From UHGV virus genome UHGV-0279745: a stretch of DNA of 64,000 nt, one strand, 5' to 3'. The position numbers were made by a program, and so were the translations under genes. This document shows, one piece after another, positions 8,387-45,279 of the stretch. Positions within the stretch are counted from its first letter, which is position 1; every line of letters begins with the position of its first letter. The notes below the pieces were generated by a model. That model ran no database searches. It was not told where the DNA came from and worked only from the letters and a program-made list of their open reading frames with translations. Origin of the DNA: a virus.

Positions 8387-8393
8387 AACCTTA

Positions 8394-8428
8394 CCCCTAC
8401 TTAACGGTAGGGGCGGGTTTCTTTTTTT
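8394..8428 (+). terminator. rho-independent terminator
   Basis: CCCCTAC-ttaacg-GTAGGGG followed by a T-run. Confidence 0.7.
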
Positions 8429-8514
8429 ACCCTAAATTTTATTACAGATTGATATTATCAATGTGACAACCGTAGTGAGTCGGTAACTCACCAATTTAAA
8501 AAGAGAGATAAATT

Positions 8515-9129: not shown

Positions 9130-9137
9130 GTAAAACT

Positions 9138-9164
9138 AAGGGGTGTTTTTACACCCCTTTTATC
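9138..9164 (+). terminator. rho-independent terminator
   Basis: AGGGGTG-ttttta-CACCCCT followed by TTTTAT. Confidence 0.6.
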
Positions 9165-9190
9165 TAAAAGCGCGTAAAGGTAAAACAATA

Positions 9191-9814
9191 ATGCTTAAGA
9201 CCGTGTCTATTGATGGTCCTGATTTTTCTGGGAAATCAACGTTGTGTAAAATGGTAAAAGCGATGTTGGAATCCGCAGGGTTAAAAGTTTGTATTCGGAA
9301 CCATCCGACGTCTGAAACCGAGGCAGGCATTCGTGCACGTAGCTTGGTTGTACAGTCTGCTTCGAAAACAAAAATTGCTGAAGCAATGTGTGATGACTTC
9401 CTTCACACGTTAGACCATGTTGTTGACGAGTATGATGTCGTTATTTTCGATCGCTTCTGTCCTTCAACGATCGTTTATCAGGGGACAGATGGTAAGGACG
9501 TGGTTTTCCAACGTAAGCTAACTCGTCATTTCCATACACCAGACCTTTATATTTGGACAGATGTTGATTACCCAACAGCGTTAGCGCGATTTAAGAAACG
9601 TGTAGAAGAACAAGGTAAGAATTGGGACGATGAGGTACTTACGGTTAAGTACCTAAAGGACAATCAATCTTGGGATGGCTTACGCGACCATTATCGTTTC
9701 GCGCATCACATCTTAACAGAAGGTGGTTGTCTTCACGCATTATTACCAGTAACGCAGAATGACGATTACCGTTTGAAAGCCGCTGAGATTGTTACGCACA
9801 TTTTAGCAAACTAA
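9191..9814 (+). CDS. dNMP/thymidylate-kinase-like P-loop kinase
   Basis: Walker A GPDFSGKST and a DR-containing segment (FDRFCPSTIVYQG) as in thymidylate/dNMP kinases. The ORF-track start 9143 lies inside the upstream terminator hairpin, so ATG 9191 is used. Confidence 0.6.
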   Translation: MLKTVSIDGPDFSGKSTLCKMVKAMLESAGLKVCIRNHPTSETEAGIRARSLVVQSASKTKIAEAMCDDFLHTLDHVVDEYDVVIFDRFCPSTIVYQGTDGKDVVFQRKLTRHFHTPDLYIWTDVDYPTALARFKKRVEEQGKNWDDEVLTVKYLKDNQSWDGLRDHYRFAHHILTEGGCLHALLPVTQNDDYRLKAAEIVTHILAN

Positions 9815-9820
9815 CCGCTT

Positions 9821-9858
9821 AGGTACCACCCAACGGTGGTACCTATATTTTATTTTTT
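9821..9858 (+). terminator. rho-independent terminator
   Basis: AGGTACCACC-caac-GGTGGTACCT followed by a T-rich run. Confidence 0.75.
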
Positions 9859-9899
9859 CTCAGATATATTTTACTTAGGTGAGAGTTATGATTAACTCT
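9854..9899 (+). promoter_or_regulatory. conserved promoter-like motif (copy 1) with downstream stem-loop
   Basis: TTTTTTCTCAGATATATTTTACTTAGGTGAGAG; one of four near-identical copies, each after a terminator and before a gene start. Confidence 0.5.
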
Positions 9900-9934
9900 T
9901 TACACCGACTTGTTAACCTAAAGGAGTATTTACA

Positions 9935-10294
9935 ATGGCTTACAATCACAATTCCATCATTCTGGCAAAGCGTAAATTCGGTCTTCACTTGTCTTACGTA
10001 ATTCGTCATTTGACCACAAAAGACATTACTCAGCGTGAACTTGCCCAGCTTGCGAAAGTTTCACAACCTGTTATCTCGTCTATTAAGAACGATCACTCAG
10101 AACGTTTAAGCTTGCCGATTATGATGAAAGTTGCTGATGCGATTCGTCTGAAATACCAGATTAGTTTTAATTCCGTTAAGGGTCGTTGCTCAGTAACCGT
10201 TCACGTAGAGTCCGCGTTGGACTACGTTGCAAACACGTCCATTAAACGCACCACGAAGAATGTGCGTTTTATCACTAACACCGCAACGCACTAA
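9935..10294 (+). CDS. helix-turn-helix (XRE-like) DNA-binding protein
   Basis: ITQRELAQLAKVSQPVISSIKND fits the HTH_XRE pattern; preceded by promoter-like motif and AAGGAG. Confidence 0.6.
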   Translation: MAYNHNSIILAKRKFGLHLSYVIRHLTTKDITQRELAQLAKVSQPVISSIKNDHSERLSLPIMMKVADAIRLKYQISFNSVKGRCSVTVHVESALDYVANTSIKRTTKNVRFITNTATH

Positions 10295-19559: not shown

Positions 19560-19933
19560 TGCGTATCTGGACGTTACAGCTCGCTAAGTGGCGGTTAGCT
19601 AAGCAGAAAGGGTTTCACGCAGTGGATATCACTGTGAAGTCAGGGCGAAAGGAACTCGCCCCCGACTGGGATTTCTTAATGGCGTATAAAAACTCTGCAA
19701 AGGATGCAGCTGCTGAACGCGAGTACACGATAAAGTATTTGTACAAACTCGAACGACTGTTAGATACCGACGCCGAAACTTTAGTGTCGTTACTTAGGCA
19801 CGATGACTTGGTTTTGATGTGTTATTGTCCCGCAGGTAAGTTTTGCCATCGTCATCTACTGGCGAGCAAGCTTCAAGAGGTGGGATTGATATTCGGTATC
19901 GACATTGTGTTGTGTGGAGAATTAACGGACTGA
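19559..19933 (+). CDS. hypothetical protein with CxC...CHRH motif (DUF4326/DUF488-like?)
   Basis: LVLMCYCPAGKFCHRHLL resembles the conserved Cys/CHR motif of DUF4326/DUF488-type families; recall-level only. Confidence 0.4.
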   Translation: MRIWTLQLAKWRLAKQKGFHAVDITVKSGRKELAPDWDFLMAYKNSAKDAAAEREYTIKYLYKLERLLDTDAETLVSLLRHDDLVLMCYCPAGKFCHRHLLASKLQEVGLIFGIDIVLCGELTD

Positions 19934-19960
19934 TTTGATTTTTTAGCTGTAAAATGACTT

Positions 19961-20005
19961 CCTACCGCCCGATTCTATGGGCGGTAGGTGTTTTTATTTT
20001 TTTTG
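19961..20005 (+). terminator. rho-independent terminator
   Basis: CCTACCGCCC-gattctat-GGGCGGTAGG followed by a T-run. Confidence 0.75.
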
Positions 20006-20020
20006 ATCTGGGAGGTTTTA

Positions 20021-20581
20021 GTGACTACTTACGTACCTGATTTAAGTCTGGCCTCAGCCGAATTAGTGGTCGCTTTAATCAACCACGATAACGGTTCACG
20101 GTTGTCTCTAAACGAAATCCGTATTAGCAACACTATGGCAAACCCGTCCCCGACCACTTCGCGTCGTAACACACTGACAGAGATTACAAAAATCAGGAAA
20201 CCTGATGGTGCTTCTGTGGTTGTTTATTACGACCGTCTGGATGCGGACGAAGTGTTAGCGTCTGAACCTATTTTGATTTCGTTAGACGGTACTGAAGACA
20301 ACCTTCGTGACATTTTAGGTGTTGTAAATGAATTCTGCGGAACGAACTTACAACCCGAAGATTTACGTGCTGCAGATATCACCTTAGGTAACGAACCCAT
20401 TGCTGTTAACGTTGCTGACGATTCTCCTGCGTGGATGAATGCGTTCATGGTAACGTTATTCGATACAACAGAACGAGCATTAGCAAACGAAGATGATGCG
20501 ATCTTCTGTATTGGTGATGATGCCGTTCTTACCTTTGAGGTTCCAGATGACGATTCAGCTGAAGAAAACCCGGCTACATGA
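20021..20581 (+). CDS. family-X paralog (fibre-associated hypothetical protein)
   Basis: Start placed at GTG 20021, 5 nt after GGAGG; the ORF-track start 19988 lies in the terminator. N-terminus VPDLSLASAELVVALINHD and ...VVVYYDRL match five other paralogs. Confidence 0.55.
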   Translation: MTTYVPDLSLASAELVVALINHDNGSRLSLNEIRISNTMANPSPTTSRRNTLTEITKIRKPDGASVVVYYDRLDADEVLASEPILISLDGTEDNLRDILGVVNEFCGTNLQPEDLRAADITLGNEPIAVNVADDSPAWMNAFMVTLFDTTERALANEDDAIFCIGDDAVLTFEVPDDDSAEENPAT

Positions 20582-20783
20582 ACTTGACCGTTTTACCGGT
20601 AATGGAGGCCAAAGCAAACTTTTATCAAAACTTAACAATCCCAAATCATGAAGCGCGGAGTTGGGCATCACTTTCACGTTAGAAGATGATGGATTAAAAC
20701 CAGTATAATAATCCGCTTATAAAAATGTTGAGGGGTAAAACACTTCCTCAGATCTTTTAGCTCCCGATAGAGAATTAAATATC

Positions 20784-23700
20784 ATGGCTAAAGCGGTAAA
20801 GAAAATTCGTTTACACGATTTACGTCCATACACCGGGGATATCGGTGAAGGCGTTTTACTTTTTTCGAAAGACGAAAGGGATTATCAGTTACCTGTCCGC
20901 GAGATTGTTGCGGATATTGACACCGTCAGAAACGCGGTTGCTGACGCACAAACGGCGGCGGCCAAATCGCAACAGTCTGCAACAGAAGCCACACAAGCAA
21001 AAGACTTAGCAGAAACAGCGAAGCAACAAACTGACACGTTAGCTTCCACAGTTAGCGAGCAAGCGGGAACCGTTGCCACTAAAACTGCCGAGGTTAGCAA
21101 AAAACACGCTGAAGTTTTAGCCGCGAAAACTGCCGTAGATACTGTATTACAGTCGGTAAATGAGAAAGCTCAAGCTGTCGCTACAAGCGAACAATCGGTG
21201 ACGGCTGCAGCGGCTGACGTAACTAAGAAAGCAGAAACGGTTACGCAACAGGCCGGACAAGTCCAACAGACGGCTACCGGTGTCGAGAATACTGCGGCTT
21301 CAGTTGAGGCCAGTAAGGGCGCAGTGGAGAAGATTGCTGCACAGGTCGCGAAAGATAAAGAAAGTTCAGAAGGCGCAGCAACACGTTCGGAGTCAGCTGC
21401 CTTACGTGCGGAGAAAATCGCTGCGCAGGGCTTAATCGACGCTAGTACAACCGGTAAAGGTATCGTTAAACTTAACGATACACTGACTAGCGAATCCGTG
21501 ACTGAGGCCGCCACACCGTCCACGGTTAAACAGCTGAATGACGAATTACAGTTAAAAGCCAATAAACATTCGCCGAATTTTACGGGTAAACCGTCATCCC
21601 CAACACCCCCGAAAGATTCAAACGACACGAGTATTTCCACAACGGCCTGGGTGCGTGACGCGATTGCGGAACTGGTTGGTTCTTCACCCGAGACGTTAAA
21701 TACCTTAGCGGAATTAGCTGAGGCGTTAGGTAATGACCCTAACTTCGCAACAACGATTACTGGGGAACTTGCGCAGAAACAACCTCTCAGTCCGTTGCTC
21801 ACCGCCATTGCCGCAGTCACCACAGCGGCAAATAAACTCATGTATTTCACTGGCAGTAATAAAGTCGGATTAACGGATTTTACAGAAACTGCCAGATCCT
21901 TGTTAGCGAAAGGGTCAACTGCGGATATCATCAATTTCTTGGGATTAAAGGCTACTGTAGATAAAGCGAATGGCGCGTTACAGAAAAACTCTAACGGCGC
22001 TGATATCCCAGATAAAGAAACGTTTGCTCGCAATATCGGTCTGTCTCCTGACACCTATCTGCGTTTCCGTGGCGAAATGCCAGTAGATGCTGATATTAAC
22101 ACATTTGCTCCAGATGCCAATTACACAGGAACGTGGGCTAAGTCGACGTCAACCAATGCGTCGATGGCAAAACATTTCCCAGAAGACGGTGCAGTCGGTT
22201 ATCTGGAAGTGTATAAAGCCGGTAATTACAGTGGCGCACAGCGTTTTACCTGCCGTAATGGTAACGTGTACAACCGTATGCTGAGTGGCGCGTGGAATGG
22301 TGCCAATGGACCCTGGTCACCGTGGAGAATGGTAACTACTGGTGTACGTCCATTATCTACCTCTATAGACTTGAACAGTTTGGGTGGCGCTGAGCATATG
22401 GGTAACTGGCGAAACTCAAGCAGTTCGCTGGCTGTTTTTAGCAGACATTACCCTGAAGAAGGTGGCGGTGCGCAAGGCGTACTAGAAGTAATGGAAGGTG
22501 GTCTTTTCGGACGGTTGCAGCGATACACCACACGTCGTGGTACGATGTATGTTCGTGGTTTGACCGCAACGTGGGATTCATCAAACCCGCAATGGGAAGA
22601 TTGGATTCAGGTTGGTTATCAGACTGACGGTGCTTTCTTTAAAGCCAATTTTAACGATCTCGTTAAACCGGGACGTTTCAGTGTCACTGGTGAAGCAACT
22701 AACGGTCCACTTACCGGTTCTTCTGGTGAAACCATATTAGGCGTTTGTGAAGTTACCTTACGCTTAGACGGTACAGGGGTCGAACAGAATTATACTACAT
22801 ACGGTACGGGTACAGAAACTAAAGGTCGTAAATTCCAACGTATCCGTACGGGTAACGCTTGGAGTGACTGGCGTGAGGTTTTCACATCGTATTCGCTTCC
22901 GTTGGTATTAGGTATCGGCGGTGAACGTGCGAATGTTGATCCTTTAGACTGGCAAACCTATGACTTTAAACCAGGTGAGTTAATCTGTACGCCGCTTAAC
23001 ACCATGAAAAATATTCCTACGGGAATGGATTGGGGTGTTATTGACGGTAACTTAGTTAGCATTCTGGTTGGTCCATCAGATGGCGCTACATCAGGCCGGA
23101 GTATGTTGGTTTGGCGTAGTACGGTGTCTACTGCCAACTATCGATTCTTTGCAGTACGTATCGCTGGTGATAAAGGTAGTCGTACGATTACACCACGCCA
23201 GATGCCTGTATTGAATGCAGCACACACCTGGGCAGAAAAACAGACCTTTGCAAAAGGGTTAGCAGGTGAGTTAACAGGCAATGCTTCAACCGCAACGAAA
23301 TTAAAGACCGCACGTAGAATTGGTGGGGTCGCCTTCGACGGTAGTGGTGATATTAACCTCCCAGGTGTTAACCAACAGGGTAATCAAAACACCACGGGTA
23401 ATGCCGGGACAGCCACTAAACTTCAAACTGCCAGAAATATTAACGGTGTGAGATTCGATGGTTCTGCTGACATCAATATCAACACCCTGGTAGGTCGTGG
23501 TCGGGTTACTGCACTAACCGGTTCAAACAAAGGTACGCCTGGTATTCAGATGTACGAAGTTTACAATAACGGTTATCCGACCGCTTATGGTAACTTACTG
23601 CATTTGGGTGGTTCTGCCGCATTAGGTGAAGGTGAACTGTTAATCGGTTGGTCGGGCACGAGTGGTGCGCACGCGCCCGTTTATATTCGTAGTCGACGTG

Positions 23701-25385
23701 ATACAGCGGATGCGCCGTGGTCAGATTGGGCACAAGTTTATACTGCCCGTGATAGTATTCCTGGTGTAAATACCACAGGTAATCAAGATACTACTGGTAA
23801 CGCTGCTACCGCGACGAAACTGAAAACTGCTCGCAGAATCGGGGGCGTTACCTTTGACGGTACTGGGGATATCAATTTACCGGGGGTTAACCAGCAAGGT
23901 AACCAGAATACGACAGGTAATGCAGCAACCGCTACTAAGTTACAAACAGCACGTAAGATCGGCGGTGTTAACTTTGACGGTTCGCAAGACATTAGTCTGC
24001 CCGGTGTGAACCAAACCGGTAACCAATCGACTACGGGGAATGCTGCGACAGCGACTAAGCTCCAGACTGCGCGAAATATAGGTGGCGTAGCTTTTGATGG
24101 TACTAAAGACATCAACTTACCTGGCGTAAACCAAACGGGCAATCAGTCGACCACCGGAAACGCGGCCACTGCAACAAAATTGCAGACAGCGCGTACCATT
24201 AACGGTATCGCATTTGACGGCACCAAAAACATCGAAATAACGGCTGAAAGTTTAAATCTTGGCCAAACTGTAGAATTGGCCGGTGGGTCATTGCAGAAGA
24301 AACAGAATGGTGCCGATATTCCAGATAAGAGAAAATTCTTACGAAATGTTGGTGCCGCGAACACAACAACTGTGTCTTTTAATGGTGGTGCCGGATGGTT
24401 CAAACTGGCAACTGTAACGATGCCGCAAGCCAGTTCCGTGGTTTACATAAGCCTGATTGGTGGTGCAGGGTTTAACGTTGGTTCCCCACATCAAGCAGGT
24501 ATCTCTGAGCTGGTTCTGCGCGCAGGAAATGGGAATCCAAAAGGTATTACTGGTGCGTTATGGCGACTGACCTCAGTCGGCTTCACTAATTTTGCATGGG
24601 TGAATACATCTGGTGACACTTACGATATTTATGTTGAAATAGGTAATTACGCCACCGGTGTTAATATTCAGTGGGATTACACTAGTAATGCCAACGTAAC
24701 GATTCATACATCGCCAAGTTATACGGCTAATAAACCCGCAGGACTAACAGACGGTACCGTCTATCTGATTTACAGCACACACAACAAGCCTAACGCTGGT
24801 GACATCGGTGCGTTACCGTCAGGGGGCGGTACTATAGGTGGCGATTTAACCGTTAACGGTAAATTGGTCACTAAGTACCCTGATTTTCGAATCGCTTACG
24901 GCAACTACGGCTTTATGTTACGTAACGATGGTGCCAATACCTATTTCTTAGTAACCGACGCCGGTCAAGCTGCAACGGGTTCCTGGAACGGTCTACGTCC
25001 GTTGTATTTTAATAATGCTAACGGTCAAGTAACCTTTGGTCATAACGTTACTGGCAGCGGTAACGGTTCGTTTAACGACGTACAGATTCGTTCTGACCGT
25101 CGTAACAAACGTAATCTGGTGAAACTAGATAAAGCTTTGGATCGGTTAGAGTTACTAACCGGTTATTTGTACGAAATTCAGCATCCTGACGACGGCTGGC
25201 AGACCTCTGTAGGTCTAATTGCTCAAGACGCATTAGAAGCGTTACCTGAACTTGTGTCTGAGGATGATGATGTCATTTCAGGCGAAAAACGTTTACGTCT
25301 AAACTACAATGGTGTTATTGCGCTGTTAGTAGAGGGTATGAAAGCGTTGCGTCAAGAGATTAACGAAATCAAAGGGAGATCCTAG
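20784..25385 (+). CDS. long tail fibre protein with C-terminal intramolecular chaperone (S74-like) domain
   Basis: 1533 aa: Ala/Thr/Gln-rich N-terminal region, six 40-aa repeats (GNQxTTGNAATATKLQTAR..GV.FDG..DINLPGVNQ), and C-terminal SDRRNKRN...GLIAQDALEALPELV resembling the autoproteolytic chaperone domain of endosialidase-type fibres. Confidence 0.88.
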   Translation: MAKAVKKIRLHDLRPYTGDIGEGVLLFSKDERDYQLPVREIVADIDTVRNAVADAQTAAAKSQQSATEATQAKDLAETAKQQTDTLASTVSEQAGTVATKTAEVSKKHAEVLAAKTAVDTVLQSVNEKAQAVATSEQSVTAAAADVTKKAETVTQQAGQVQQTATGVENTAASVEASKGAVEKIAAQVAKDKESSEGAATRSESAALRAEKIAAQGLIDASTTGKGIVKLNDTLTSESVTEAATPSTVKQLNDELQLKANKHSPNFTGKPSSPTPPKDSNDTSISTTAWVRDAIAELVGSSPETLNTLAELAEALGNDPNFATTITGELAQKQPLSPLLTAIAAVTTAANKLMYFTGSNKVGLTDFTETARSLLAKGSTADIINFLGLKATVDKANGALQKNSNGADIPDKETFARNIGLSPDTYLRFRGEMPVDADINTFAPDANYTGTWAKSTSTNASMAKHFPEDGAVGYLEVYKAGNYSGAQRFTCRNGNVYNRMLSGAWNGANGPWSPWRMVTTGVRPLSTSIDLNSLGGAEHMGNWRNSSSSLAVFSRHYPEEGGGAQGVLEVMEGGLFGRLQRYTTRRGTMYVRGLTATWDSSNPQWEDWIQVGYQTDGAFFKANFNDLVKPGRFSVTGEATNGPLTGSSGETILGVCEVTLRLDGTGVEQNYTTYGTGTETKGRKFQRIRTGNAWSDWREVFTSYSLPLVLGIGGERANVDPLDWQTYDFKPGELICTPLNTMKNIPTGMDWGVIDGNLVSILVGPSDGATSGRSMLVWRSTVSTANYRFFAVRIAGDKGSRTITPRQMPVLNAAHTWAEKQTFAKGLAGELTGNASTATKLKTARRIGGVAFDGSGDINLPGVNQQGNQNTTGNAGTATKLQTARNINGVRFDGSADININTLVGRGRVTALTGSNKGTPGIQMYEVYNNGYPTAYGNLLHLGGSAALGEGELLIGWSGTSGAHAPVYIRSRRDTADAPWSDWAQVYTARDSIPGVNTTGNQDTTGNAATATKLKTARRIGGVTFDGTGDINLPGVNQQGNQNTTGNAATATKLQTARKIGGVNFDGSQDISLPGVNQTGNQSTTGNAATATKLQTARNIGGVAFDGTKDINLPGVNQTGNQSTTGNAATATKLQTARTINGIAFDGTKNIEITAESLNLGQTVELAGGSLQKKQNGADIPDKRKFLRNVGAANTTTVSFNGGAGWFKLATVTMPQASSVVYISLIGGAGFNVGSPHQAGISELVLRAGNGNPKGITGALWRLTSVGFTNFAWVNTSGDTYDIYVEIGNYATGVNIQWDYTSNANVTIHTSPSYTANKPAGLTDGTVYLIYSTHNKPNAGDIGALPSGGGTIGGDLTVNGKLVTKYPDFRIAYGNYGFMLRNDGANTYFLVTDAGQAATGSWNGLRPLYFNNANGQVTFGHNVTGSGNGSFNDVQIRSDRRNKRNLVKLDKALDRLELLTGYLYEIQHPDDGWQTSVGLIAQDALEALPELVSEDDDVISGEKRLRLNYNGVIALLVEGMKALRQEINEIKGRS
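23265..23483 (+). repeat. tandem 120-bp (40-aa) repeat block 1 within the tail fibre gene
   Basis: Two units encoding G(E/N).(T/N)TGNA.TATKL.TAR.I.GV.FDGS.DIN.... Confidence 0.8.
23778..24240 (+). repeat. tandem 120-bp (40-aa) repeat block 2 within the tail fibre gene
   Basis: About four consecutive units GNQ(D/N/S)TTGNAATATKLQTAR.IGGV.FDG..DI.LPGVNQ. with high DNA-level identity. Confidence 0.85.
25091..25382 (+). other. C-terminal intramolecular chaperone / autoproteolysis domain of the tail fibre
   Basis: SDRRNKRN...LTGYLYEI...GLIAQDALEALPELV matches the conserved pattern of endosialidase-type C-terminal chaperone domains as recalled. Confidence 0.7.
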
Positions 25386-26167
25386 TGGCAGTTGTCGGCG
25401 TAGGTGGTTGGATTGGTTCTTCAGCAAAAGCTGAAACTGGTAACGATTGGATGTCTGGCGCGATGCGCACACTTGGTGTGCCGGTTCCAGGCTGGATGTC
25501 GCAATTGGCGGGAAAATCAAAAGAGGTCCATTATTCTATTGGTGCTAACCATAGCTATAATAAGGATACTCTTATTAACTATTTACGTTCTTTAGGCTCT
25601 ACTGCTGTCGTTGTGACTATTACGGGGGATTTAGTGTCTTATAGTAGCGGAGTTCCTTGTTTAGAGTTCCCTGGCGACCTACCGAACTCCTCCATTACAC
25701 TCGTTATCAATCCTGGGGTTACAGTATACGGCAGAGGAGGCAACGGTGGTTCTAACTCGCCAGGCGGTGCAGGTGGAACCGCAGTACAGAACGGAATAGG
25801 AAACAGGTTACGTATAACTAACCGTGGCGCTATTGCCGGAGGCGGTGGCGGCGGTGGCGGCGGTAACAGGGGTAGACTAATATTTGGTGGTGGCGGTGGT
25901 CGCCCATTCGGTGCTGGTGGGTCTTCCTCTCATATGAGTTCCGGTGCAACTGCTGGTACTATTTCCGCTCCTGGTAAAGGATCTGTTGGTGAGGGGTCTC
26001 TTAGTGCATATACAGGCGGTTCGGGTGGTAATGTCGGTGCTGCTGGAGGAAGATGTAATACTCAAGGTAACGGTACAGAATATAACGGCGGAGCAGCTGG
26101 TAAAGCTGTTACTGGTAATGCGCCAAGATGGGACGCAGTAGGTGCAATATACGGTTCACGTGTTTAA
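25385..26167 (+). CDS. glycine-rich protein (poly-Gly tract), fibre-associated
   Basis: GTG start overlaps the fibre stop by 1 nt (TAGTG); contains GGGGGGGGGN and many GG/GGS tracts. Confidence 0.6.
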   Translation: MAVVGVGGWIGSSAKAETGNDWMSGAMRTLGVPVPGWMSQLAGKSKEVHYSIGANHSYNKDTLINYLRSLGSTAVVVTITGDLVSYSSGVPCLEFPGDLPNSSITLVINPGVTVYGRGGNGGSNSPGGAGGTAVQNGIGNRLRITNRGAIAGGGGGGGGGNRGRLIFGGGGGRPFGAGGSSSHMSSGATAGTISAPGKGSVGEGSLSAYTGGSGGNVGAAGGRCNTQGNGTEYNGGAAGKAVTGNAPRWDAVGAIYGSRV

Positions 26168-26242
26168 TTAAAAAGGAGGGTAGATGGGGTAGCGTCAGGA
26201 TGGGTCGGATCTTCAGCTAGGAATGAAACGGGCGAACAATGG

Positions 26243-26686
26243 ATGAGCGCTGCTGGTAGTAAATTAGGATTGGGTAGACCTTTTATGATGAGTCAAATGG
26301 TGGGAAGATCTATGGGCTGTAAAATTGCAACTGCTGCATATAGCGATTCTTTAGGTAAGAAATGGGGCGCGGTAGGGCCAAGCTGGCCGTTAAACCAGAA
26401 AAATCAGGGAACCATTCAAAACGCGGGTAACTGCGGGGTGGGAACTTTAGTAGGTATCGAGTTACAGTTAACGACGATAGTTGCTAACGCAAAACCCACT
26501 TTAGCGGTTTACTTACAAGGTGGGAGAGCCTCTAACATTACCGTAAATTTAGGTGGCAACACTTGTACGCTGACCTATCAGCAGGTTATTAACGGACAGC
26601 ATTATTACTGGACTAATAACATCAGCGCTGCGTTCCAAAACGTAATGAAATCAACAGGCGCGCTACGTGATTTGCGAATTAGTTAA
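26243..26686 (+). CDS. paralog of the glycine-rich protein N-terminus (5' end uncertain)
   Basis: Homology to the N-terminus of the 25385 ORF (GW[IV]GSSA+xETGxxWMS[AG]A) begins in frame upstream of ATG 26243, directly after the TAA of the preceding gene. Confidence 0.5.
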   Translation: MSAAGSKLGLGRPFMMSQMVGRSMGCKIATAAYSDSLGKKWGAVGPSWPLNQKNQGTIQNAGNCGVGTLVGIELQLTTIVANAKPTLAVYLQGGRASNITVNLGGNTCTLTYQQVINGQHYYWTNNISAAFQNVMKSTGALRDLRIS

Positions 26687-26773
26687 TTATTTTCAACTGA
26701 AATCGTAATTGAGGGGAGGGGGGTGAAATGATTCTAGTAACATTTTATCCCCCTACTGTAGGGGGTAAACTTT

Positions 26774-27289
26774 ATGGGACAATTCGTGCCGGATTTGTCA
26801 CTGACCTCACCTAACATGGTTATTTCGTTGATCAATCACGACCTTCAGCTTGATCTGCAAGAAACCGATGTTGAGTTTAGCGAACTAAAATCTAGCGACG
26901 CGATGGATCGTGATACCACTGCTGTTGTAAAGATCAAACGTCCGGGCAGCAGAACGTTACAGATCTATTACAATCGTTTAACCGCAGAGCGGTGGTTAAA
27001 CCAGCAACCTATTCTGGTAAAGGTCACCGGTAATGGCTTTACTACGCACGATCTGATCGACGGAATTAATGCGGTCTGTGGTAGTAATTTACAAGCCGAC
27101 GATCTTACCGACGAATCATTTACCGTAGGGAGGGACGCTGTAACATTACAAGTTTCACCCAACTCGCTAGGTTATAAAGGCCAATTCTCCGTTCTGGTTT
27201 TCGGTAACGATGAAGAAGCCGCAGTAACAAAAGACAACGATTTGATCGTTACTGCAGATAATCGTGTCTTAACATTCGGAGGTCACTAA
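26774..27289 (+). CDS. family-X paralog (fibre-associated hypothetical protein)
   Basis: MGQFVPDLSLTSPNMVISLINHD and ...LQIYYNRL are paralogous to 20021-20581; precedes the second fibre-like gene. Confidence 0.55.
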   Translation: MGQFVPDLSLTSPNMVISLINHDLQLDLQETDVEFSELKSSDAMDRDTTAVVKIKRPGSRTLQIYYNRLTAERWLNQQPILVKVTGNGFTTHDLIDGINAVCGSNLQADDLTDESFTVGRDAVTLQVSPNSLGYKGQFSVLVFGNDEEAAVTKDNDLIVTADNRVLTFGGH

Positions 27290-27909
27290 TGGCTGAACTG
27301 GTAGGAAAGGTACGCGTTCACGAACTACCGACACTTTCAGAAGACGTCACAGGTGTAGTCGTCTTAGCGTCTAAAGAACAAACTGAATACCAACTCCCGA
27401 TTGAAAAATTAGGGGGTGGTGAGGTTACAGTGAGTCCGTCGGCGAATAACATCCTTAAGTCTAACAGTGATGGGTTGTTTGTTAATGGTGCGCATCCGAT
27501 TGTACCAAAAATAGATGCAAAAACCGTATCGGGAAATATGGTAGTAGAAAAAACGTTGACGGGTGGTGCGGTAATCTGCAAAACAACGGTTGACGTTAAT
27601 AACAGGCTGGGTGTTACGCAATTATCAGGGGTATCAATTTATAGCCAGTGTCTGTTGGAAAATAAACTGGTTTACCTGGCAGCAGATGGTGGTATTATTG
27701 ATGCGTACTTCTACGTTAGTGGTACAAAAACCACAGCGAGTACAATAACCCACACCATTCGGGTTGTCTTAGCGAAAGTACCTTCTAAAGTTGTCGATAT
27801 CACCGATTTGTCTGAAACCGAAGTACAATACGAGAATAGTAATTTACCTGTTAAGATCGTTATTAAACATCTTGCAGGGACAACACTTTCTCAGAACGGA
27901 ATGAAATAA
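27289..27909 (+). CDS. short tail-fibre-like protein (fibre N-terminal domain paralog)
   Basis: N-terminus MAELVGKVRVHELPTLSEDVTGVVVLASKEQTEYQLPIEKL is paralogous to the N-terminus of the 1533-aa fibre; ATGA coupling with upstream gene. Confidence 0.6.
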   Translation: MAELVGKVRVHELPTLSEDVTGVVVLASKEQTEYQLPIEKLGGGEVTVSPSANNILKSNSDGLFVNGAHPIVPKIDAKTVSGNMVVEKTLTGGAVICKTTVDVNNRLGVTQLSGVSIYSQCLLENKLVYLAADGGIIDAYFYVSGTKTTASTITHTIRVVLAKVPSKVVDITDLSETEVQYENSNLPVKIVIKHLAGTTLSQNGMK

Positions 27910-27916
27910 TTTTTAG

Positions 27917-27956
27917 GTAGTAGGGGCTTAGCCCCTACTACCTTTTTTATTTTTTC
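27917..27956 (+). terminator. rho-independent terminator
   Basis: GGTAGTAGGGGC-tta-GCCCCTACTACC followed by a T-run. Confidence 0.8.
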
Positions 27957-28029: not shown

Positions 28030-28881
28030 ATGCATCACCCGTATTATCTCCCGCACATTCTAGCAAATAGGGACCCCGCTTATTATTACGGACAAACAGA
28101 AGGATCTTTTAATCGACTATACATTCGTGAATTTGATACCGATGAAATGACGGATGACCAGTACCTAGAGTATCTAAAAGACCTTTACAGTTTTTCAAAA
28201 TCGAATAAAGATGGCTTTGGACGCCTCTCAGTCATTAGCGATGGTGAATATCGTCATTTAGCTAAGCCTGTTACGTACCCTATTATTACGCGAGCTTATA
28301 CATCGGATAGGCAATATCTTGCTGAACTAAAAATTCCTCTACGGATAGACGGGCCCCAAATTAGCTGTATGGAAGTAGAAATTCAACCAATTGCTGAAGA
28401 CTATATTGAGGACTACTTCAAGAAAGCTAAAGACGTACTCGACGAGGGTTTAAGTTTCTCTGAAGAAGGCACGATTTGTCTTCTCTCGCTACTCTCGAAG
28501 ACTTATGTCACAGCAAATTTCCGTGTCTCTGATTCCAGTAACTACAATACACTTACTCCCTCTAAGACAAAACCGGTTTATTGGGACGATCGGTTAGTCG
28601 ACAGACACCGTTGGCTTACTATCTTAGATAAAGTAAAATTCGAACCCCCTAAACACACCGAAGACAATTTTACTTTATTACACAACTTCGAACCGATCTA
28701 TATCCCGACGCATTTTGAACAAGCCTTACGTCATCGGTTGAAATATGTGTTGGAATTACGGTACGGAAAGATAAATGGGCTAACCTGTTCTGGTGAATTG
28801 AATGAAGATGAACGCGAGAAAATAAAAATCGTGTTTGATAAGTTGGTTGAAGATTACATTAAGAAGGAAGGGCAATTATGA
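28030..28881 (+). CDS. hypothetical protein
   Basis: 283-aa ORF; AAGGAGG upstream; first gene after promoter-like motif copy at 27957. Confidence 0.55.
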   Translation: MHHPYYLPHILANRDPAYYYGQTEGSFNRLYIREFDTDEMTDDQYLEYLKDLYSFSKSNKDGFGRLSVISDGEYRHLAKPVTYPIITRAYTSDRQYLAELKIPLRIDGPQISCMEVEIQPIAEDYIEDYFKKAKDVLDEGLSFSEEGTICLLSLLSKTYVTANFRVSDSSNYNTLTPSKTKPVYWDDRLVDRHRWLTILDKVKFEPPKHTEDNFTLLHNFEPIYIPTHFEQALRHRLKYVLELRYGKINGLTCSGELNEDEREKIKIVFDKLVEDYIKKEGQL

Positions 28882-35605: not shown

Positions 35606-36454
35606 ATGTCTCTTACGTCAAAACAGAAACTGCTAAAACTCATCAACACTGAAAACAATATTGTTCCGCCATTGACCTTCAGTGATGTTGATATCGGCGA
35701 ACCTACTGGTACTAGGGTTGATACCCAGGTGGTTCTGACTTCTAAACTCAAAGGCGATGAGTCTACTACTTTAACAGTGACTTACCATCGTCGTAATTTG
35801 CCCGAATACCTAACAGGTGAATTGGTATTCGGTAACGACGGTGTTGTAACCGCTACAGATTTGCTTAATGCAATCAACGCAAAATACGATTTAAATATCC
35901 TGCCGTCGGATATCGTTGATGCGAAAGTTGAAGGTGAAACCCATCAGCTTACCGCTAACGAGAAATCCTACGAATGGTGTGGCGAGGTGACACTTACGCT
36001 ACGCGATCCTATTGATCTGGCTAAACTGTTACCTGTTACTCAATTAGAAAACCTGGTAGAGTATCCGTCCACTAAGAAAGGTAACGCAGCGGTTTATTCT
36101 TATCCAATTGACTTCACCGCAGAAAAAGATTACCTCGATCCGATTACCATTAACGACACTGTCGACCTGGCTGAGTTAGCCACTAAACTGGTCAACGTCG
36201 TTGATGAGAAATGGGTAAGCGTACCTAAAAACGCTGCTAATAACCTCTACGGTGCTAAGGTTATCTACGATGGCCCTACCGCAGGTTACGAAGGTGCAAA
36301 TACGAAGTACACGCGTGTGCTGGTACTCGCACTCAGTGGACTGTGTGCTAACCTGACCGGTAATCTGTTAATCCACTTTAACGGTACCGATCGTCCGAAG
36401 TCGAAGATTGAATTAGCTAAAACTAATTCGGTCTTACCGGGATTCTTAGATTAA
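35606..36454 (+). CDS. family-X paralog (putative virion-associated protein)
   Basis: N-terminal KLINTENN...LTFSDVDIGEP...TLTVTYHRRNL matches the family-X signature. Confidence 0.55.
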   Translation: MSLTSKQKLLKLINTENNIVPPLTFSDVDIGEPTGTRVDTQVVLTSKLKGDESTTLTVTYHRRNLPEYLTGELVFGNDGVVTATDLLNAINAKYDLNILPSDIVDAKVEGETHQLTANEKSYEWCGEVTLTLRDPIDLAKLLPVTQLENLVEYPSTKKGNAAVYSYPIDFTAEKDYLDPITINDTVDLAELATKLVNVVDEKWVSVPKNAANNLYGAKVIYDGPTAGYEGANTKYTRVLVLALSGLCANLTGNLLIHFNGTDRPKSKIELAKTNSVLPGFLD

Positions 36455-36467
36455 GAGGATTACAGTA

Positions 36468-36944
36468 ATGACCAGTCAAGAAACTATCTTCGACCTTATT
36501 AAAAAGGCTAACCCAGACGCTGAGCTTGACACCGCCAAAGTTACATTGGGTGAGCCCGTCGTAAGTACCGGTGCGTACAACACCGAAGTTACGGTTGCGT
36601 CAATTAAGAATCTCGGTTATGCTAATAAGCAAACGTTCCAGTATAACCGCATCGATGCAGGTTTGTATTTCCTCAACGTATTGCCGAAACTGTTAGTTGA
36701 ATCAGCCACCACGACTGCGGACCTGTTGCCTGTAATTAACGAACAATATGGCTTAACCCTTACTGAAGACGACGTATGGGTAGAGCAGGTTGGTGAGTTA
36801 CCGCTGGACGGCAGCGCAATCGAGCACGGCATTTTCTTCCGTCCTGAGTGCCTAACCTGGGTCGGTGGTTTTACAGTGCGCGTTGCGCGTAAACCGACTG
36901 TTGAAACACCGCCAGCTAATCCATCGCGCGCTAAGAAGAAATAA
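36468..36944 (+). CDS. family-X paralog (putative virion-associated protein)
   Basis: DLIKKANPDAELDTAKVTLGEP...TFQYNRID matches the family-X signature; terminator follows. Confidence 0.55.
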   Translation: MTSQETIFDLIKKANPDAELDTAKVTLGEPVVSTGAYNTEVTVASIKNLGYANKQTFQYNRIDAGLYFLNVLPKLLVESATTTADLLPVINEQYGLTLTEDDVWVEQVGELPLDGSAIEHGIFFRPECLTWVGGFTVRVARKPTVETPPANPSRAKKK

Positions 36945-37005: not shown

Positions 37006-37596
37006 ATGGCCGAACGTTGGACTAAAGAAGGTATTATTGCTTCGAAAACAGATTTAGAAGGAGGGTACGTAAACGACCCTGACGATAAAGGTGGGGAAAC
37101 CTGTCACGGTGTAACACTAACAACTGCACGCGAATACGGGTATAAAGGGAGAATGAAGGATCTGACCCGTGCGCAGGCGTTTGATATTTACGATCGCGGT
37201 TGGTGGAAGAAACTTAAACTCGATGAGATTTTAGCTATCTCACCCTTACTCGCAGACCGGATGTTTGATTTTGCTATTAACTCTGGCCGCGTTAACTGTG
37301 TGAAATCGTTACAACGTATTCTGAACGTTTTAAATAACGAAGGGAAACTTTACGCAGATATTGACACTGATGGCGGTATGGGACCTAAAACGCTAGGTGC
37401 CCTGAATGCTTATCTGAATTACCGTAAAGACGAGGGGTTAGGCATCTTAATCTTTGCCTTAATCTCACACCAGGTAACTTACTACACAGAAATCTCCGAA
37501 AAGCGTAAGAAGAATGAAAAATTCGCTTACGGTTGGTATGCGCGTGTGTTCAGGGAAATGCCGGATTATGTGGCGAAGGCGGGGTTAGTAAAATGA
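37006..37596 (+). CDS. GH108-family lysozyme-like peptidoglycan hydrolase (putative endolysin)
   Basis: N-terminal KTDLEGGYVNDPDDKGGETCHGVT matches the GH108 signature (EGG..D..D.GG.T..G[IV]T) as recalled. Confidence 0.7.
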   Translation: MAERWTKEGIIASKTDLEGGYVNDPDDKGGETCHGVTLTTAREYGYKGRMKDLTRAQAFDIYDRGWWKKLKLDEILAISPLLADRMFDFAINSGRVNCVKSLQRILNVLNNEGKLYADIDTDGGMGPKTLGALNAYLNYRKDEGLGILIFALISHQVTYYTEISEKRKKNEKFAYGWYARVFREMPDYVAKAGLVK

Positions 37597-44221: not shown

Positions 44222-44242
44222 TGCAGGTGACTCCGGTCGTTT

Positions 44243-45130: not shown

Positions 45131-45279
45131 TGATTGCTCCAATTATTTCACGGTCAAACGGACATTCAGGGTATAGAAACCACCGCACCGTTGCCTACCG
45201 ATAACTTGAAACTCAGTAGTAAACCCGTACAATTAACTCAGTTATTGCGTAATAGACATACTACCACTGGAGGGCTTAG

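What the first reader, a model, noticed from the sequence alone, without database searches (positions are those of the whole stretch)
19988..27909. Duplicated fibre cassette: family-X gene plus fibre gene occurs twice, the second fibre only 206 aa
Cassette 1 is 20021-20581 plus the 1533-aa fibre; cassette 2 is 26774-27289 plus a 206-aa ORF (27289-27909) whose N-terminus is paralogous to the long fibre's N-terminus (MAKAVKKIRLHDLRPYTGD.GEGVLLFSKDE.DYQLP versus MAELVGKVRVHELPTLSED.TGVVVLASKEQ.EYQLP). The second fibre may be an alternative short receptor-binding protein, or a truncated remnant of a once-longer fibre.
Basis: seen in the sequence. Interest (0 to 1): 0.6.

Follow-up and report, generated by a model that had tools for sequence, protein, structure and literature searches.

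The report
Short plug-in receptor protein, jumbo phage
The 206-residue "second fibre" is an intact, conserved, dispensable short host-recognition protein of a giant (about 225 kb) enterobacterial phage. It carries the same roughly 45-residue N-terminal module as the long fibre and, like it, lies downstream of a small baseplate-family (DUF7941) gene, which suggests a testable way that exchangeable receptor proteins attach to these phages.

Summary
X1 (20021-20581) and X2 (26774-27289) are paralogues (33% identity, E 9e-33). The 1533-aa fibre and the 206-aa ORF share a roughly 45-aa N-terminal module (39% identity, E 7e-8).

The "truncated remnant / sequencing error" reading is rejected:
- The ORF is 205-206 aa in the 16 full-length sequence clusters found.
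- dN/dS is 0.13-0.22.
- It has its own ribosome-binding site and is followed by a strong terminator.
- Short is the norm: the SPN3US counterpart gp123 is 156 aa and is a virion protein.

Family X is DUF7941, a family specific to Chimalliviridae (nucleus-forming jumbo phages). The X2 model matches only the PhiKZ gp127 N-terminal domain at the baseplate periphery.

"One cassette duplicated" is too simple:
- X1's original partner genes were deleted, leaving a 34-codon relic at 20547-20651.
- The long fibre is a chimera tipped by a T-even gp38 adhesin.
- The slot after X2 holds different N-module proteins in relatives (206, 706, 731, 133 aa).
- One relative has deleted the 206-aa gene.

Best model: X proteins are baseplate sockets and the N-module is the plug. 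This is inferred from gene adjacency, translational coupling and X-receptor-protein fusions in other jumbo phages. It has not been shown.

The result is ordinary as phage modularity, but useful as a hypothesis about attachment in chimalliviruses.

The parts
19961..19988 (+). Intrinsic-terminator-like hairpin (11-bp stem, 8 G-C pairs, followed by a T-run) that closes the upstream DUF488 gene and marks the left border of the host-recognition module.
   Evidence: sequence shown
20021..20581 (+). X1: a 186-aa DUF7941 protein (GTG start behind GGGAGG) and the orthologue of SPN3US gp122 (45% identity). It has an N-terminal globular domain and a short acidic tail with the motif IFCIGDDAVLTF.
   Evidence: Pfam PF25613 68.4 bits against a cutoff of 27; phrog_2935
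20547..20651 (+). Relic of a third N-module gene: a 34-codon ORF (MTIQLKKTRLHELDRFTGNGG...) overlapping the end of X1. It is what remains of the gp123-like (153 aa) and gp124-like (1001 aa) gene pair that relatives still carry at this position.
   Evidence: N-module HMM E 3e-7; nucleotide alignment to L004; the same relic in L014/L015 and intact genes in L004, L011, L012 and L020
20784..25385 (+). Long fibre (LF), 1533 aa. It consists of the N-module (residues 1-45, 20784-20918), a shaft (Phage_fiber_2, internal repeats), a Gp34_trimer-like domain and a C-terminal Peptidase_S74 intramolecular chaperone.
25385..26167 (+). gp38-type glycine-rich adhesin, 260 aa. Its GTG start overlaps the LF stop codon. 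It is 82-93% identical at nucleotide level to T-even (Krischvirus and related) E. coli phages.
   Evidence: Pfam GP38 232.6 bits and Gp38_N; junction
26243..26686 (+). Second gp38-like gene (T4-type, phrog_1121), 147 aa as it reads here. Relatives have 167-170 aa. The native ATG is out of frame because of a 1-nt deletion in a G-run near 26186.
26774..27289 (+). X2: a 171-aa DUF7941 protein. The model has a globular domain (residues 1-150) that matches only the PhiKZ gp127 N-terminal domain, and a disordered tail (151-171) with the motif LIVTADNRVLTF. Its stop codon overlaps the SF start (TAATG).
   Evidence: Pfam 62.3 bits against a cutoff of 27; 47 clusters at 70-97% identity, mostly 170-172 aa; AF2 model; Foldseek 9xqd_0 E 1.6e-7, TM 0.61/0.68; junction
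27289..27909 (+). SF: a 206-aa short N-module protein. It has the N-module (residues 1-45, 27289-27423), a conserved neck (46-72) and a beta-sandwich tip domain (about 72-200) that ends in the invariant GT.LSQNGM motif. A GGAGG ribosome-binding site lies 8 nt upstream of the ATG.
27915..27943 (+). Strong intrinsic-terminator-like hairpin (13-bp stem, 8 G-C pairs, then TTTTTATTTT) 6 nt after the SF stop codon. It marks the right border of the module.

Best explanation
The window comes from an uncultured jumbo phage of about 225 kb that infects enterobacteria. It is related to Seoulvirus (SPN3US-like phages), which belong to the Chimalliviridae.

Region 19961-27943 is one terminator-bracketed host-recognition module. 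It holds two small DUF7941 proteins (X1 and X2), which belong to the family of PhiKZ gp127, a protein that caps the outermost spoke of the baseplate. It also holds receptor-binding proteins that all begin with the same roughly 45-residue N-terminal module.

The 206-aa protein is a complete, functional but dispensable minimal receptor-binding protein. It consists of the N-module, a short neck and a lectin-like beta-sandwich tip, with no shaft.

The long fibre carries the same N-module joined to a T-even-like fibre body, and is followed by a gp38 adhesin gene acquired from T-even phages.

Proposed mechanism:
- The X proteins sit on the peripheral baseplate and act as sockets.
- The N-module is the plug, so different tips can be swapped at each socket to change or widen host range.

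Shown here:
- The gene is intact and under purifying selection.
- The N-module is shared.
- X belongs to DUF7941 and has the gp127-like fold.
- X is strictly adjacent to an N-module gene.
- The slot after X2 varies between relatives.
- A natural deletion of SF exists.

Inferred:
- SF is in the virion (by analogy with SPN3US gp123).
- SF binds a receptor, probably a carbohydrate.
- The N-module physically docks on X. I give this last step about 0.45.
For: Intactness:
- 16 full-length clusters at 51-98% identity are all 205-206 aa.
- dN/dS is 0.13-0.22 over both halves of the protein.
- The gene has a ribosome-binding site and a terminator.

Precedent for short N-module proteins:
- SPN3US gp123 (156 aa) has the same N-module (43-50% identity) directly after the DUF7941 gene gp122.
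- gp123 was detected in purified virions (supplement of PMC5694885).

The N-module:
- In 1.84 billion representative proteins it is found only at residue 1 of proteins of 133-1494 aa.
- In relatives it heads proteins of 153, 205/206, 273, 706 (SASA esterase), 710, 731 and 1385-1540 aa.

Adjacency of X and N-module genes:
- X2 is followed by an N-module gene in all 16 fetched relative loci that still have a gene in that slot, mostly within 0-6 nt (167 nt in L023).
- 25 records of Seoulvirus-like isolates have exactly one such pair each.
- Klebsiella phage Eowyn has several X-then-fibre pairs with a diverged N-module, at 5-6 sites per genome in its group.

Fusions: in Serratia phage Moabite and in Goslar gp86/gp92/gp161 (bioRxiv 10.64898/2026.04.21.720040) the DUF7941 domain is covalently fused to tailspike or carbohydrate-binding domains.

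X fold and location:
- Pfam PF25613 is well above its cutoff.
- The only significant PDB fold match is the PhiKZ gp127 N-terminal domain in the outer peripheral baseplate.
- gp127 terminates the gp139 band in each star lobe of the baseplate (PMC13250141).

Tip domain:
- Residues 72-200 have pLDDT of about 90.
- Foldseek against BFVD (predicted viral protein structures) matches a 555-aa Serratia phage BF protein (E 1e-11) and an H-type lectin domain protein.
- The same domain ends an 842-aa PHROG family and a 338-aa fibre from an unrelated phage.

Accessory nature: the 222-kb element of E. coli 98232 has SF deleted and X2 retained.

Co-variation: the X2 C-terminal tail co-varies with the type of N-module that follows it.
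Against: - No physical evidence for X-N-module contact. Complex prediction could not be run here.
- Adjacency and tail co-variation could reflect recombination linkage alone.
- In SPN3US, gp122 (the X protein) was almost undetectable in virions (0, 0 and 5 spectra), whereas gp123 and gp124 were seen.
- The SPN3US group assigned the DUF7941 paralogue family to the head, because its members were present in a tailless mutant (PMC5694885).
- In L003/L004 there are more N-module genes than X genes, so the relation is not one-to-one.
- X2 persists where SF has been deleted.
- The N-terminal 71 residues are modelled with low confidence.
- The N-module HMM detects no similarity to DUF7941 linker or tail regions.
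Confidence: 0.55

Rival explanations
1. The 206-aa ORF is a truncated remnant of a once-longer fibre, or a longer gene broken by a sequencing error.
For: The same tip domain occurs at the end of longer proteins elsewhere: phrog_33169 at positions 684-841 of 842, a 338-aa protein P0021 and a 555-aa Serratia phage BF protein. Other genes in this module do show damage: the start of gp38b is lost and a gp123-like relic remains.
Against: - The length is 205-206 aa in the 16 full-length clusters found.
- dN/dS is 0.13-0.22 in both halves.
- The N-module and the C-terminal motif GT.LSQNGM are both intact.
- The gene has a ribosome-binding site and is translationally coupled to X2.
- A strong terminator lies 6 nt after the stop codon.
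- No relative has a longer version.
- Even shorter homologous-architecture proteins (133-156 aa) are widespread, and SPN3US gp123 is a virion protein.
Confidence: 0.03
2. SF and the long fibre are real receptor-binding proteins, but their shared N-module docks on some other peripheral-baseplate component, for example homologues of PhiKZ gp139, gp130 or gp26. The DUF7941 X proteins would be unrelated neighbours, such as subunits of the proposed DUF7941 filaments, or assembly factors.
For: - SPN3US gp122 is nearly absent from virion mass spectra while gp123 is present.
- There are more N-module genes than X genes in L003/L004.
- X2 is retained after SF was deleted.
- Other DUF7941 paralogues in the window have no fibre gene next to them.
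- Co-variation of the X2 tail with the downstream gene can be explained by recombination breakpoints.
Against: - Strict X-then-N-module adjacency with overlapping stop and start codons holds across Seoulvirus-like isolates, the window lineage and the distant Eowyn group.
- DUF7941 is covalently fused to tailspike or carbohydrate-binding domains in Moabite and Goslar, as expected if the two parts work together.
- The gp127-like fold places X at the outermost tip of the baseplate.
Confidence: 0.3
3. SF is not a receptor-binding protein. Instead it is a small structural adaptor, a cap that fills the docking site, or an assembly helper for another tail component.
For: - SPN3US gp123 (156 aa) precedes the 1005-aa tail protein gp124, which has no N-module, so gp123 could be an adaptor for gp124.
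- The fold match of the SF tip to lectins and receptor-binding tips is modest.
- No receptor data exist.
Against: - In the window, SF is followed by a terminator and by non-structural-looking conserved genes, so there is no partner gene.
- Between lineages its N-module is conserved (80% nucleotide identity to L003) while its C-terminal domain is strongly diverged. The whole protein is 51% identical and synonymous sites in the C-domain are saturated. This is the usual pattern for a receptor-binding tip.
- The same slot holds an esterase-type protein and other large receptor-binding-like proteins in relatives.
- The tip domain is found at the distal end of longer fibres elsewhere.
Confidence: 0.1
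4. The two cassettes are a recent tandem duplication of one X-plus-fibre unit, followed by loss of most of the second fibre.
For: Same gene order (X, then a gene with the N-module), same strand and same operon.
Against: - X1 and X2 are only 33% identical, and the N-modules 39%.
- X1 is closer to SPN3US gp122 (45%) than to X2, so the split predates the divergence from Seoulvirus or came by transfer.
- The ancestral neighbour of X1 was a gp123-like gene, not the long fibre.
- The SF C-domain has no similarity to any part of the long fibre.
Confidence: 0.02

Closest known systems
SPN3US gp122-gp123(-gp124) locus (Seoulvirus; RefSeq tags ACQ60_gp144, gp143 and gp142)
   Same: A DUF488 gene lies upstream. 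A DUF7941 protein of about 180 aa follows, and its stop codon overlaps the start of a short protein carrying the same N-terminal module (43-50% identity to SF and LF). gp123 and gp124 are virion proteins by mass spectrometry.
   Different: - SPN3US and all 25 related isolate records have a single such pair. The window lineage has a second socket gene (X2), the SF tip and a T-even-like long fibre.
- The gp123 C-domain (phrog_9017) is unrelated to the SF C-domain (phrog_33169).
- In the window the gp123/gp124 orthologues are deleted.
DUF7941 family: Goslar gp22/gp23 and others, PhiKZ gp126/gp127
   Same: X1 and X2 are clear sequence members. The X2 model superposes on the PhiKZ gp127 N-terminal domain. 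The architecture of a globular N-domain plus a disordered tail matches the description of Goslar gp23. The family is proposed to sit on the peripheral baseplate and to serve host recognition (bioRxiv 10.64898/2026.04.21.720040; PMC13250141).
   Different: The papers read here describe head-to-tail DUF7941 filaments and DUF7941 domains fused to carbohydrate-binding or hydrolase domains. They do not describe separate receptor-binding proteins with a shared N-terminal module encoded directly downstream of short DUF7941 genes. That pairing is the new element here, and it is inferred, not shown.
Branched multi-receptor-binding-protein systems with a conserved N-terminal docking peptide (Klebsiella podophages KP32/K11/KP34; also, from my own knowledge, CBA120 tailspikes, G7C gp63.1/gp66 and the phi92/rV5 multi-fibre baseplates)
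   Same: Several receptor-binding proteins per virion; a short conserved N-terminal segment combined with highly variable distal domains; horizontal exchange of tips (PMC13352976 abstract).
   Different: In those systems the secondary protein docks on a branching domain of a primary receptor-binding protein. Here the candidate socket is a separate small DUF7941 protein, and there is no sequence similarity to those anchors. No Pfam or PHROG family covers the N-module in SF or LF.
T2/T6/S16-type long tail fibre tip with gp38 adhesin
   Same: The distal fibre gene is followed by a gp38 glycine-rich adhesin (PF05268, PF21721) with 82-93% nucleotide identity to T-even phages.
   Different: It sits on a chimallivirus fibre that starts with the N-module and ends with a Peptidase_S74 chaperone domain. 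It is followed by a second, T4-type gp38-like gene whose start is damaged in the window.

Membership tests
DUF7941 (PF25613), the chimallivirus peripheral-baseplate / filament family | Sequence match to the Pfam model above the gathering score | tested here: met
   X1 68.4 bits and X2 62.3 bits against a cutoff of 27. phrog_2935 'virion structural protein' E 1e-25 to 1e-27.
DUF7941 (PF25613), the chimallivirus peripheral-baseplate / filament family | Fold of the N-terminal globular domain as in PhiKZ gp127 (PDB 9xqd chain 0), followed by a disordered linker or tail | tested here: met
   AF2 model of X2 (mean pLDDT 69; residues 151-171 below 50). Foldseek against the PDB gives 9xqd_0 as the only significant hit: E 1.6e-7, probability 1.00, TM 0.61/0.68 over 148 columns.
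DUF7941 (PF25613), the chimallivirus peripheral-baseplate / filament family | Presence in the virion at the peripheral baseplate; head-to-tail oligomerisation | not testable with these tools
   Known only from the Goslar and PhiKZ work. SPN3US gp122 was hardly detected in virions.
N-module receptor-binding proteins of Seoulvirus-like phages (SPN3US gp123-like N-terminus) | Roughly 45-aa motif at residue 1: M-A-x-x-V-x-K-x-R-[LIV]-H-[DE]-L ... [VL]-L-x-S-K ... [DE]-Y-x-[LI]-P | tested here: met
   LF 85.7 bits and SF 83.0 bits to the HMM built from nine sequences, LF and SF among them, so these scores are partly by construction. Independent support: BLASTP of LF and SF against SPN3US gp123 gives E 2e-10 and 1e-8, and the library-wide search finds the module only at N-termini.
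N-module receptor-binding proteins of Seoulvirus-like phages (SPN3US gp123-like N-terminus) | Gene lies directly downstream of a short DUF7941 gene | tested here: met
   SF: the X2 stop overlaps the SF start. The same holds in the 16 relative loci and in 25 isolate records. For LF the condition is met only secondarily, after a deletion.
SPN3US gp123 family proper (phrog_9017) | Homology over the whole protein, including the C-terminal domain | tested here: not met
   SF hits only phrog_33169 with residues 47-205. gp123 and the L004 153-aa protein hit phrog_9017. BLASTP similarity is confined to residues 1-44. SF therefore works like gp123 but is not an orthologue.
H-type lectin fold (Helix pomatia agglutinin, discoidin C-domain) as receptor-binding tip | Beta-sandwich superposable on H-type lectins; trimeric sugar-binding site | tested here: inconclusive
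Tail fibre with C-terminal intramolecular chaperone (Peptidase_S74) | S74 domain at the C-terminus of the fibre | tested here: met
   LF residues 1437-1491, 40.8 bits against a cutoff of 22. Gp34_trimer at 1342-1408, 61.4 bits. Autoproteolysis was not testable.
gp38 adhesin (T2/T6/S16 type) | Gp38_N plus the glycine-rich GP38 domain, encoded directly after the distal fibre gene | tested here: met
   25385-26167: PF05268 232.6 bits, PF21721 57.4 bits. The start overlaps the LF stop. 82-93% nucleotide identity to T-even phages.
Branched receptor-binding systems with docking peptide (KP32-type) | Secondary protein's N-terminal peptide binds a branching domain in a primary receptor-binding protein | not tested
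   No search for a branching domain in the primary receptor-binding protein (LF) was run. The Pfam and PHROG scans of LF only listed ordinary fibre families. The candidate partner here is a separate DUF7941 protein. The resemblance is functional only.

The most novel reading that the evidence does not exclude
Short DUF7941 proteins (X1, X2, SPN3US gp122, Eowyn gp226/228/229) are the general plug-in sockets of the chimallivirus peripheral baseplate, and the roughly 45-residue N-module is the matching plug. On this reading the split form (SPN3US, Eowyn, this phage) and the fused form (Goslar gp86/92/161, Moabite gp205/206) are two states of one attachment system. The X tail and the N-module type would then define orthogonal socket-plug pairs, letting one virion carry several independent, exchangeable receptor-binding proteins. 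This would explain part of the unassigned density in the PhiKZ and Goslar peripheral baseplates, and would give a rule for re-targeting nucleus-forming jumbo phages.
Probability: 0.4. Interest if true: 0.6.

Novelty: new variant of a known kind. Interest (0 to 1): 0.45.

Why it matters
Chimalliviruses are attractive for therapy and for basic biology because their phage nucleus shields the genome from many host defences. How they recognise hosts is poorly understood. Both 2026 cryo-EM studies (PhiKZ and Goslar) left much of the peripheral baseplate and the fibre attachment unassigned.

This locus offers three things:
- A concrete, testable pairing: a small DUF7941 protein as socket and a roughly 45-aa N-module as plug.
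- A natural series of swapped tips at one slot (206, 706, 731 and 133 aa).
- A natural knock-out of the 206-aa gene.

If the pairing holds, it gives a design rule for host-range engineering of jumbo phages.

If it does not hold, the finding is ordinary. It would then be a conserved accessory short receptor-binding protein in a mosaic fibre cluster, one that has also captured a T-even gp38 adhesin.

Tried and rejected
- tblastn of full-length SF against 50,697 phage records found no match, so no isolated phage carries it.
- phmmer of SF and X2 against PDB sequences gave nothing significant. PhiKZ gp127 was the top X2 hit only at E 0.49. The fold search was needed to show the relation.
- A word-indexed search with the N-module profile returned only seven short fragments. 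The exhaustive representative search was more informative.
- I tested the idea that the N-module mimics the DUF7941 linker or tail that docks on the next protomer. The N-module HMM gives no hit to any DUF7941 ORF in the window, even at E 10. The visual resemblance (GD..GVLLFS against GDDAVLTF) is therefore left as unsupported.
- Weak tblastn hits of the N-module to Felixounavirus genomes (E 0.3-0.8) were not pursued, because they are not significant.
- Tandem Repeats Finder found no array in the long-fibre gene, although BLAST shows diverged internal repeats.
- Complex prediction for X2 plus SF could not be run.
- The hypothesis of a recent duplication was rejected on divergence. The hypothesis of truncation was rejected on conservation and dN/dS.
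- The 206-aa ORF after X2 in L016 is a coincidence of length. It is the broken 5' part of the 706-aa esterase gene.


Full report
**1. What is in the sequence**

The region holds a co-directional gene row on the + strand:

| Gene | Coordinates | Length |
|---|---|---|
| X1 | 20021-20581 | 186 aa |
| Long fibre (LF) | 20784-25385 | 1533 aa |
| gp38-type adhesin | 25385-26167 | 260 aa |
| Second gp38-like gene | 26243-26686 | 147 aa |
| X2 | 26774-27289 | 171 aa |
| Short ORF (SF) | 27289-27909 | 206 aa |

- X1 and X2 are 33% identical over their whole length (E 9e-33).
- LF and SF share only their first 41 residues (39% identity, E 7e-8).
- Two strong terminator-like hairpins bracket the row, at 19961-19988 and 27915-27943.
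- LF/gp38 and X2/SF have overlapping stop and start codons (TAGTG and TAATG). SF has a GGAGG ribosome-binding site 8 nt upstream, and X1 starts at the GTG at 20021 behind GGGAGG.

**2. Whose genome is this**

- The rest of the window matches SPN3US-like (Seoulvirus) and Erwinia jumbo phages at about 73% nucleotide identity. Seoulvirus belongs to the Chimalliviridae (PMC11428620).
- No deposited phage is close in the fibre region. Only the gp38 gene and the fibre tip match, at 82-93%, and the matches are to T-even and other E. coli phages.
- Close relatives at 90-97% nucleotide identity exist as contigs of 220-226 kb. They come from gut metagenomes and from Salmonella, Shigella and E. coli assemblies.
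- Two complete assemblies list such an element as a "plasmid": E. coli 98232 (221,873 bp, circular) and Enterobacter ludwigii (222,441 bp).

**3. Family X**

- X1 and X2 hit Pfam DUF7941 (PF25613) far above its cutoff, and PHROG "virion structural protein" families.
- DUF7941 corresponds to SPN3US "paralogue family B". The SPN3US authors suspected that gp122, the orthologue of X1, belongs to it (PMC5694885).
- It is also the family of Goslar gp22/gp23 and PhiKZ gp126/gp127. [quoted passage not shown]
- In the PhiKZ virion structure, gp127 terminates the gp139 band at the outer end of each star lobe of the baseplate (PMC13250141).
- An AF2 model of X2 has a globular domain (residues 1-150) and a disordered tail. 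Its only significant PDB fold match is the PhiKZ gp127 N-terminal domain (9xqd_0: E 1.6e-7, TM 0.61/0.68).
- The window holds at least two more DUF7941 paralogues, at 35606-36454 and 36468-36944, with no fibre gene beside them.

**4. The shared N-terminal module**

SPN3US has the gene order DUF488 - gp121 - gp122 (DUF7941) - gp123 (156 aa) - gp124 (1005 aa). gp123 begins with the same module (MATVVKKKRLHELDSYDGD...EYKLP), which is 48-50% identical to LF and 43% to SF.

In relatives of the window, the module heads proteins of these lengths:
- 153 aa
- 205/206 aa
- 273 aa
- 706 aa (SASA-type esterase)
- 710 aa
- 731 aa
- 133 aa
- 1385-1540 aa

An exhaustive profile search of 1.84 billion representative proteins finds the module in only about 16 clusters. 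It is always at residue 1, on proteins of 133-1494 aa. Seven of about twelve full-length representatives are 206 aa or shorter, so short is the rule rather than the exception.

**5. Is the 206-aa gene intact?**

Yes.
- 16 full-length clusters at 51-98% identity are all 205-206 aa. The few shorter entries among the hits are partial or internally deleted copies.
- dN/dS is 0.13-0.22 against relatives, and about 0.13-0.15 separately for the N-module and the C-domain.
- The N-module and the invariant C-terminal motif GT.LSQNGM are both present.
- No relative has a longer version.
- Where another gene follows (710 aa in L003/L004), it has its own start and its own N-module.
- SPN3US gp123 (16.5 kDa) and gp124 were detected in purified virions and were not labelled as head proteins (supplement of PMC5694885). 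By analogy this supports SF being a virion protein.

**6. What SF looks like**

- The AF2 model gives a confident beta-sandwich for residues 72-200 (pLDDT about 90). Residues 1-71 are at low confidence, as expected for a segment that folds on a partner or in an oligomer.
- Foldseek against viral models finds a 555-aa Serratia phage BF protein (E 1e-11) and an "H-type lectin domain" protein.
- The same domain ends an 842-aa PHROG family and a 338-aa fibre from an unrelated small contig.
- Between lineages the N-module is conserved while the C-domain is strongly diverged. SF of L003 is 51% identical overall, and synonymous sites in the C-domain are saturated. This is the usual pattern for a receptor-binding tip.

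I conclude that SF is a minimal receptor-binding protein: plug, neck and tip, with no shaft. The ligand is unknown. A carbohydrate is a reasonable guess, but no more than that.

**7. The cassettes are not a simple duplication**

- X1 is closer to SPN3US gp122 (45%) than to X2.
- Between X1 and LF lies a 34-codon relic of a third N-module gene (20547-20651, HMM E 3e-7). It aligns with the start of the 153-aa gp123-like gene of relatives.
- Relatives L004, L011, L012 and the E. coli 98232 element still carry the 153-aa and 1001-aa genes at this position. The X1-LF adjacency therefore arose by deletion.
- LF is itself a mosaic. It combines the N-module, a shaft, a Gp34_trimer-like domain and a Peptidase_S74 chaperone, and it is followed by a gp38 adhesin gene recently acquired from T-even phages.
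- The slot after X2 is a swap site. SF, a 706-aa esterase, a 731-aa protein or a 133-aa protein occupy it in different relatives. The last 25 or so residues of X2 co-vary with the occupant.
- In the nearest relatives (L006-L009), X2 is read as a 644-aa ORF. In it, 475 residues of a fibre C-terminal domain are fused upstream of the DUF7941 domain.
- In the E. coli 98232 element, SF is deleted internally and X2 remains. SF is therefore dispensable, as expected for an accessory host-range determinant.

**8. How it most likely works**

Shown:
- The shared N-module.
- DUF7941 membership and the gp127-like fold of X.
- Strict adjacency of X and N-module genes.

The adjacency evidence is as follows:
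- All 16 fetched relative loci that still have a gene after X2 show an N-module gene there, mostly within 0-6 nt.
- 25 records of Seoulvirus-like isolates have exactly one pair each.
- The distant Klebsiella phage Eowyn has several X-then-fibre pairs with a diverged N-module, at 5-6 sites per genome in its group.
- In Moabite and Goslar the DUF7941 domain is covalently fused to tailspike or carbohydrate-binding domains. This "Rosetta-stone" pattern is what one expects if the two parts work together.

Inferred:
- X proteins sit on the peripheral baseplate like gp127 and act as sockets.
- The N-module is the plug.
- The X tail may link X to another DUF7941 unit, as proposed for Goslar.

I give the direct X-N-module contact about 0.45. 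The main rival, docking elsewhere on the baseplate with X as a neighbour only, gets about 0.3.

Against the model:
- gp122 is hardly seen in SPN3US virions.
- There are more N-module genes than X genes in some relatives.
- X2 is retained without SF.
- The SPN3US group assigned family B to the head.

**9. Comparison with what is known, and novelty**

- Multi-receptor-protein phages with conserved N-terminal anchors and exchangeable tips are well known. Examples are the KP32-type docking peptide (PMC13352976) and, from my own knowledge, CBA120, G7C and phi92.
- A recent compatibility map lists an adapter cluster within the Chimalliviridae (bioRxiv 10.64898/2026.02.20.706991).
- DUF7941 has been described, and RefSeq already calls SPN3US gp123 a "tail fiber protein".
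- I did not find three things in the papers searched: the pairing of short DUF7941 genes with N-module proteins, the second socket in this lineage, and the series of alternative occupants.

I rate this a new variant of a known kind. It is of moderate interest: ordinary as phage modularity, but useful because it makes fibre attachment in nucleus-forming jumbo phages directly testable.

Noticed in passing
window 20547-20651 (+): A 34-codon relic ORF (MTIQLKKTRLHELDRFTGNGGQSKLLSKLNNPKS) with the first 26 positions of the N-module, overlapping the end of X1. It marks the deletion of the gp123-like (153 aa) and gp124-like (1001 aa) genes that L004, L011, L012 and L020 still carry. The same relic is present in L014/L015.
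   Followed up: yes
window 26168-26245 (start region of the gene at 26243-26686): The second gp38-like gene has lost its native ATG through a 1-nt deletion in a G-run (relatives read GATGGGGGT, the window reads GATGGGGT). The ORF now starts 20 codons in, giving 147 aa against 167-170 aa. This is either a real frameshift or a homopolymer sequencing error.
   Followed up: partly
window 24291-26169: The fibre tip and the gp38 adhesin gene are 82-93% identical at nucleotide level to T-even (Krischvirus and others) and other E. coli phages (CMS-2020a, Yersinia phage vB_YpM_39). The rest of the window is only about 73% identical to any deposited phage. This indicates recent horizontal acquisition by a chimallivirus.
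   Followed up: partly
L006-L009, positions 8067-10001 (equivalent to window 26706-27289): In the closest relatives X2 is a 644-aa ORF. Residues 1-475 match the C-terminal part of tail-fibre families (phrog_13714, phrog_7032) and are fused in frame upstream of the DUF7941 domain. This is the reverse order to the Goslar and Moabite fusions. It is unclear whether this is a functional fusion or a recombination scar.
   Followed up: partly
L020 (E. coli 98232 'plasmid' NZ_CP173450.1, 221,873 bp circular); Enterobacter ludwigii NZ_CP134650.1 (222,441 bp): Complete bacterial assemblies carry this jumbo-phage lineage as a circular replicon of about 222 kb annotated as a plasmid. Many draft Salmonella, Shigella and E. 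coli assemblies also contain it. This suggests a carrier state or pseudolysogeny, or phage in the sequenced cultures.
   Followed up: no
L020 9578-9640 (equivalent to window 27289-27909 and 28050-28817): A natural deletion of SF. Only the ATG and the last 12 or so codons (..AGTTLSQNGMK*) remain after an intact X2. The 283-aa gene downstream is also missing.
   Followed up: yes
L014, L017, L022, L023 (slot after X2); L016 10517-12638: Alternative occupants of the SF slot are a 706-aa SASA-esterase/DUF6645 protein, a 731-aa protein, and a 133-aa protein followed by a 348-aa protein. Each has its own N-module variant and a matching X2 tail variant. In L016 the esterase gene is split into 206 + 489 aa, so its 206-aa length is a coincidence.
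   Followed up: partly
window 35606-36454, 36468-36944; weaker 39608-40144, 40215-40745: Further DUF7941 paralogues (282 and 158 aa, plus two weak candidates). They lie next to the gene that by synteny with L006 is a GH108 endolysin (37006-37596). None is followed by an N-module gene.
   Followed up: partly
window 19933-20021: The 144-aa gene that sits between the DUF488 gene and X1 in L006-L009, L014, L015 and L017, in the same position as gp121 in SPN3US, is absent from the window and from L016. Only the terminator hairpin remains there.
   Followed up: no
L019 (Klebsiella phage Eowyn) and L018 (Serratia phage Moabite): Eowyn has alternating DUF7941 genes and fibre or 'bacteriolytic' genes whose N-termini match the N-module HMM (E 3e-6, 6e-6, 0.05). 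Its group has 5-6 such N-termini per genome. In Moabite the DUF7941 domain is fused to two tailspike proteins of about 685 aa.
   Followed up: partly
literature (PMC5694885 against bioRxiv 10.64898/2026.04.21.720040): There is a conflict over where DUF7941 proteins sit. The SPN3US work places family B in the head, because its members were detected in a tailless mutant. The Goslar and PhiKZ work places the family at the peripheral baseplate.
   Followed up: no
window 41994-45141: Two radical-SAM genes conserved with SPFM and SPN3US-like phages (about 73% nucleotide identity), seen while identifying the phage.
   Followed up: no
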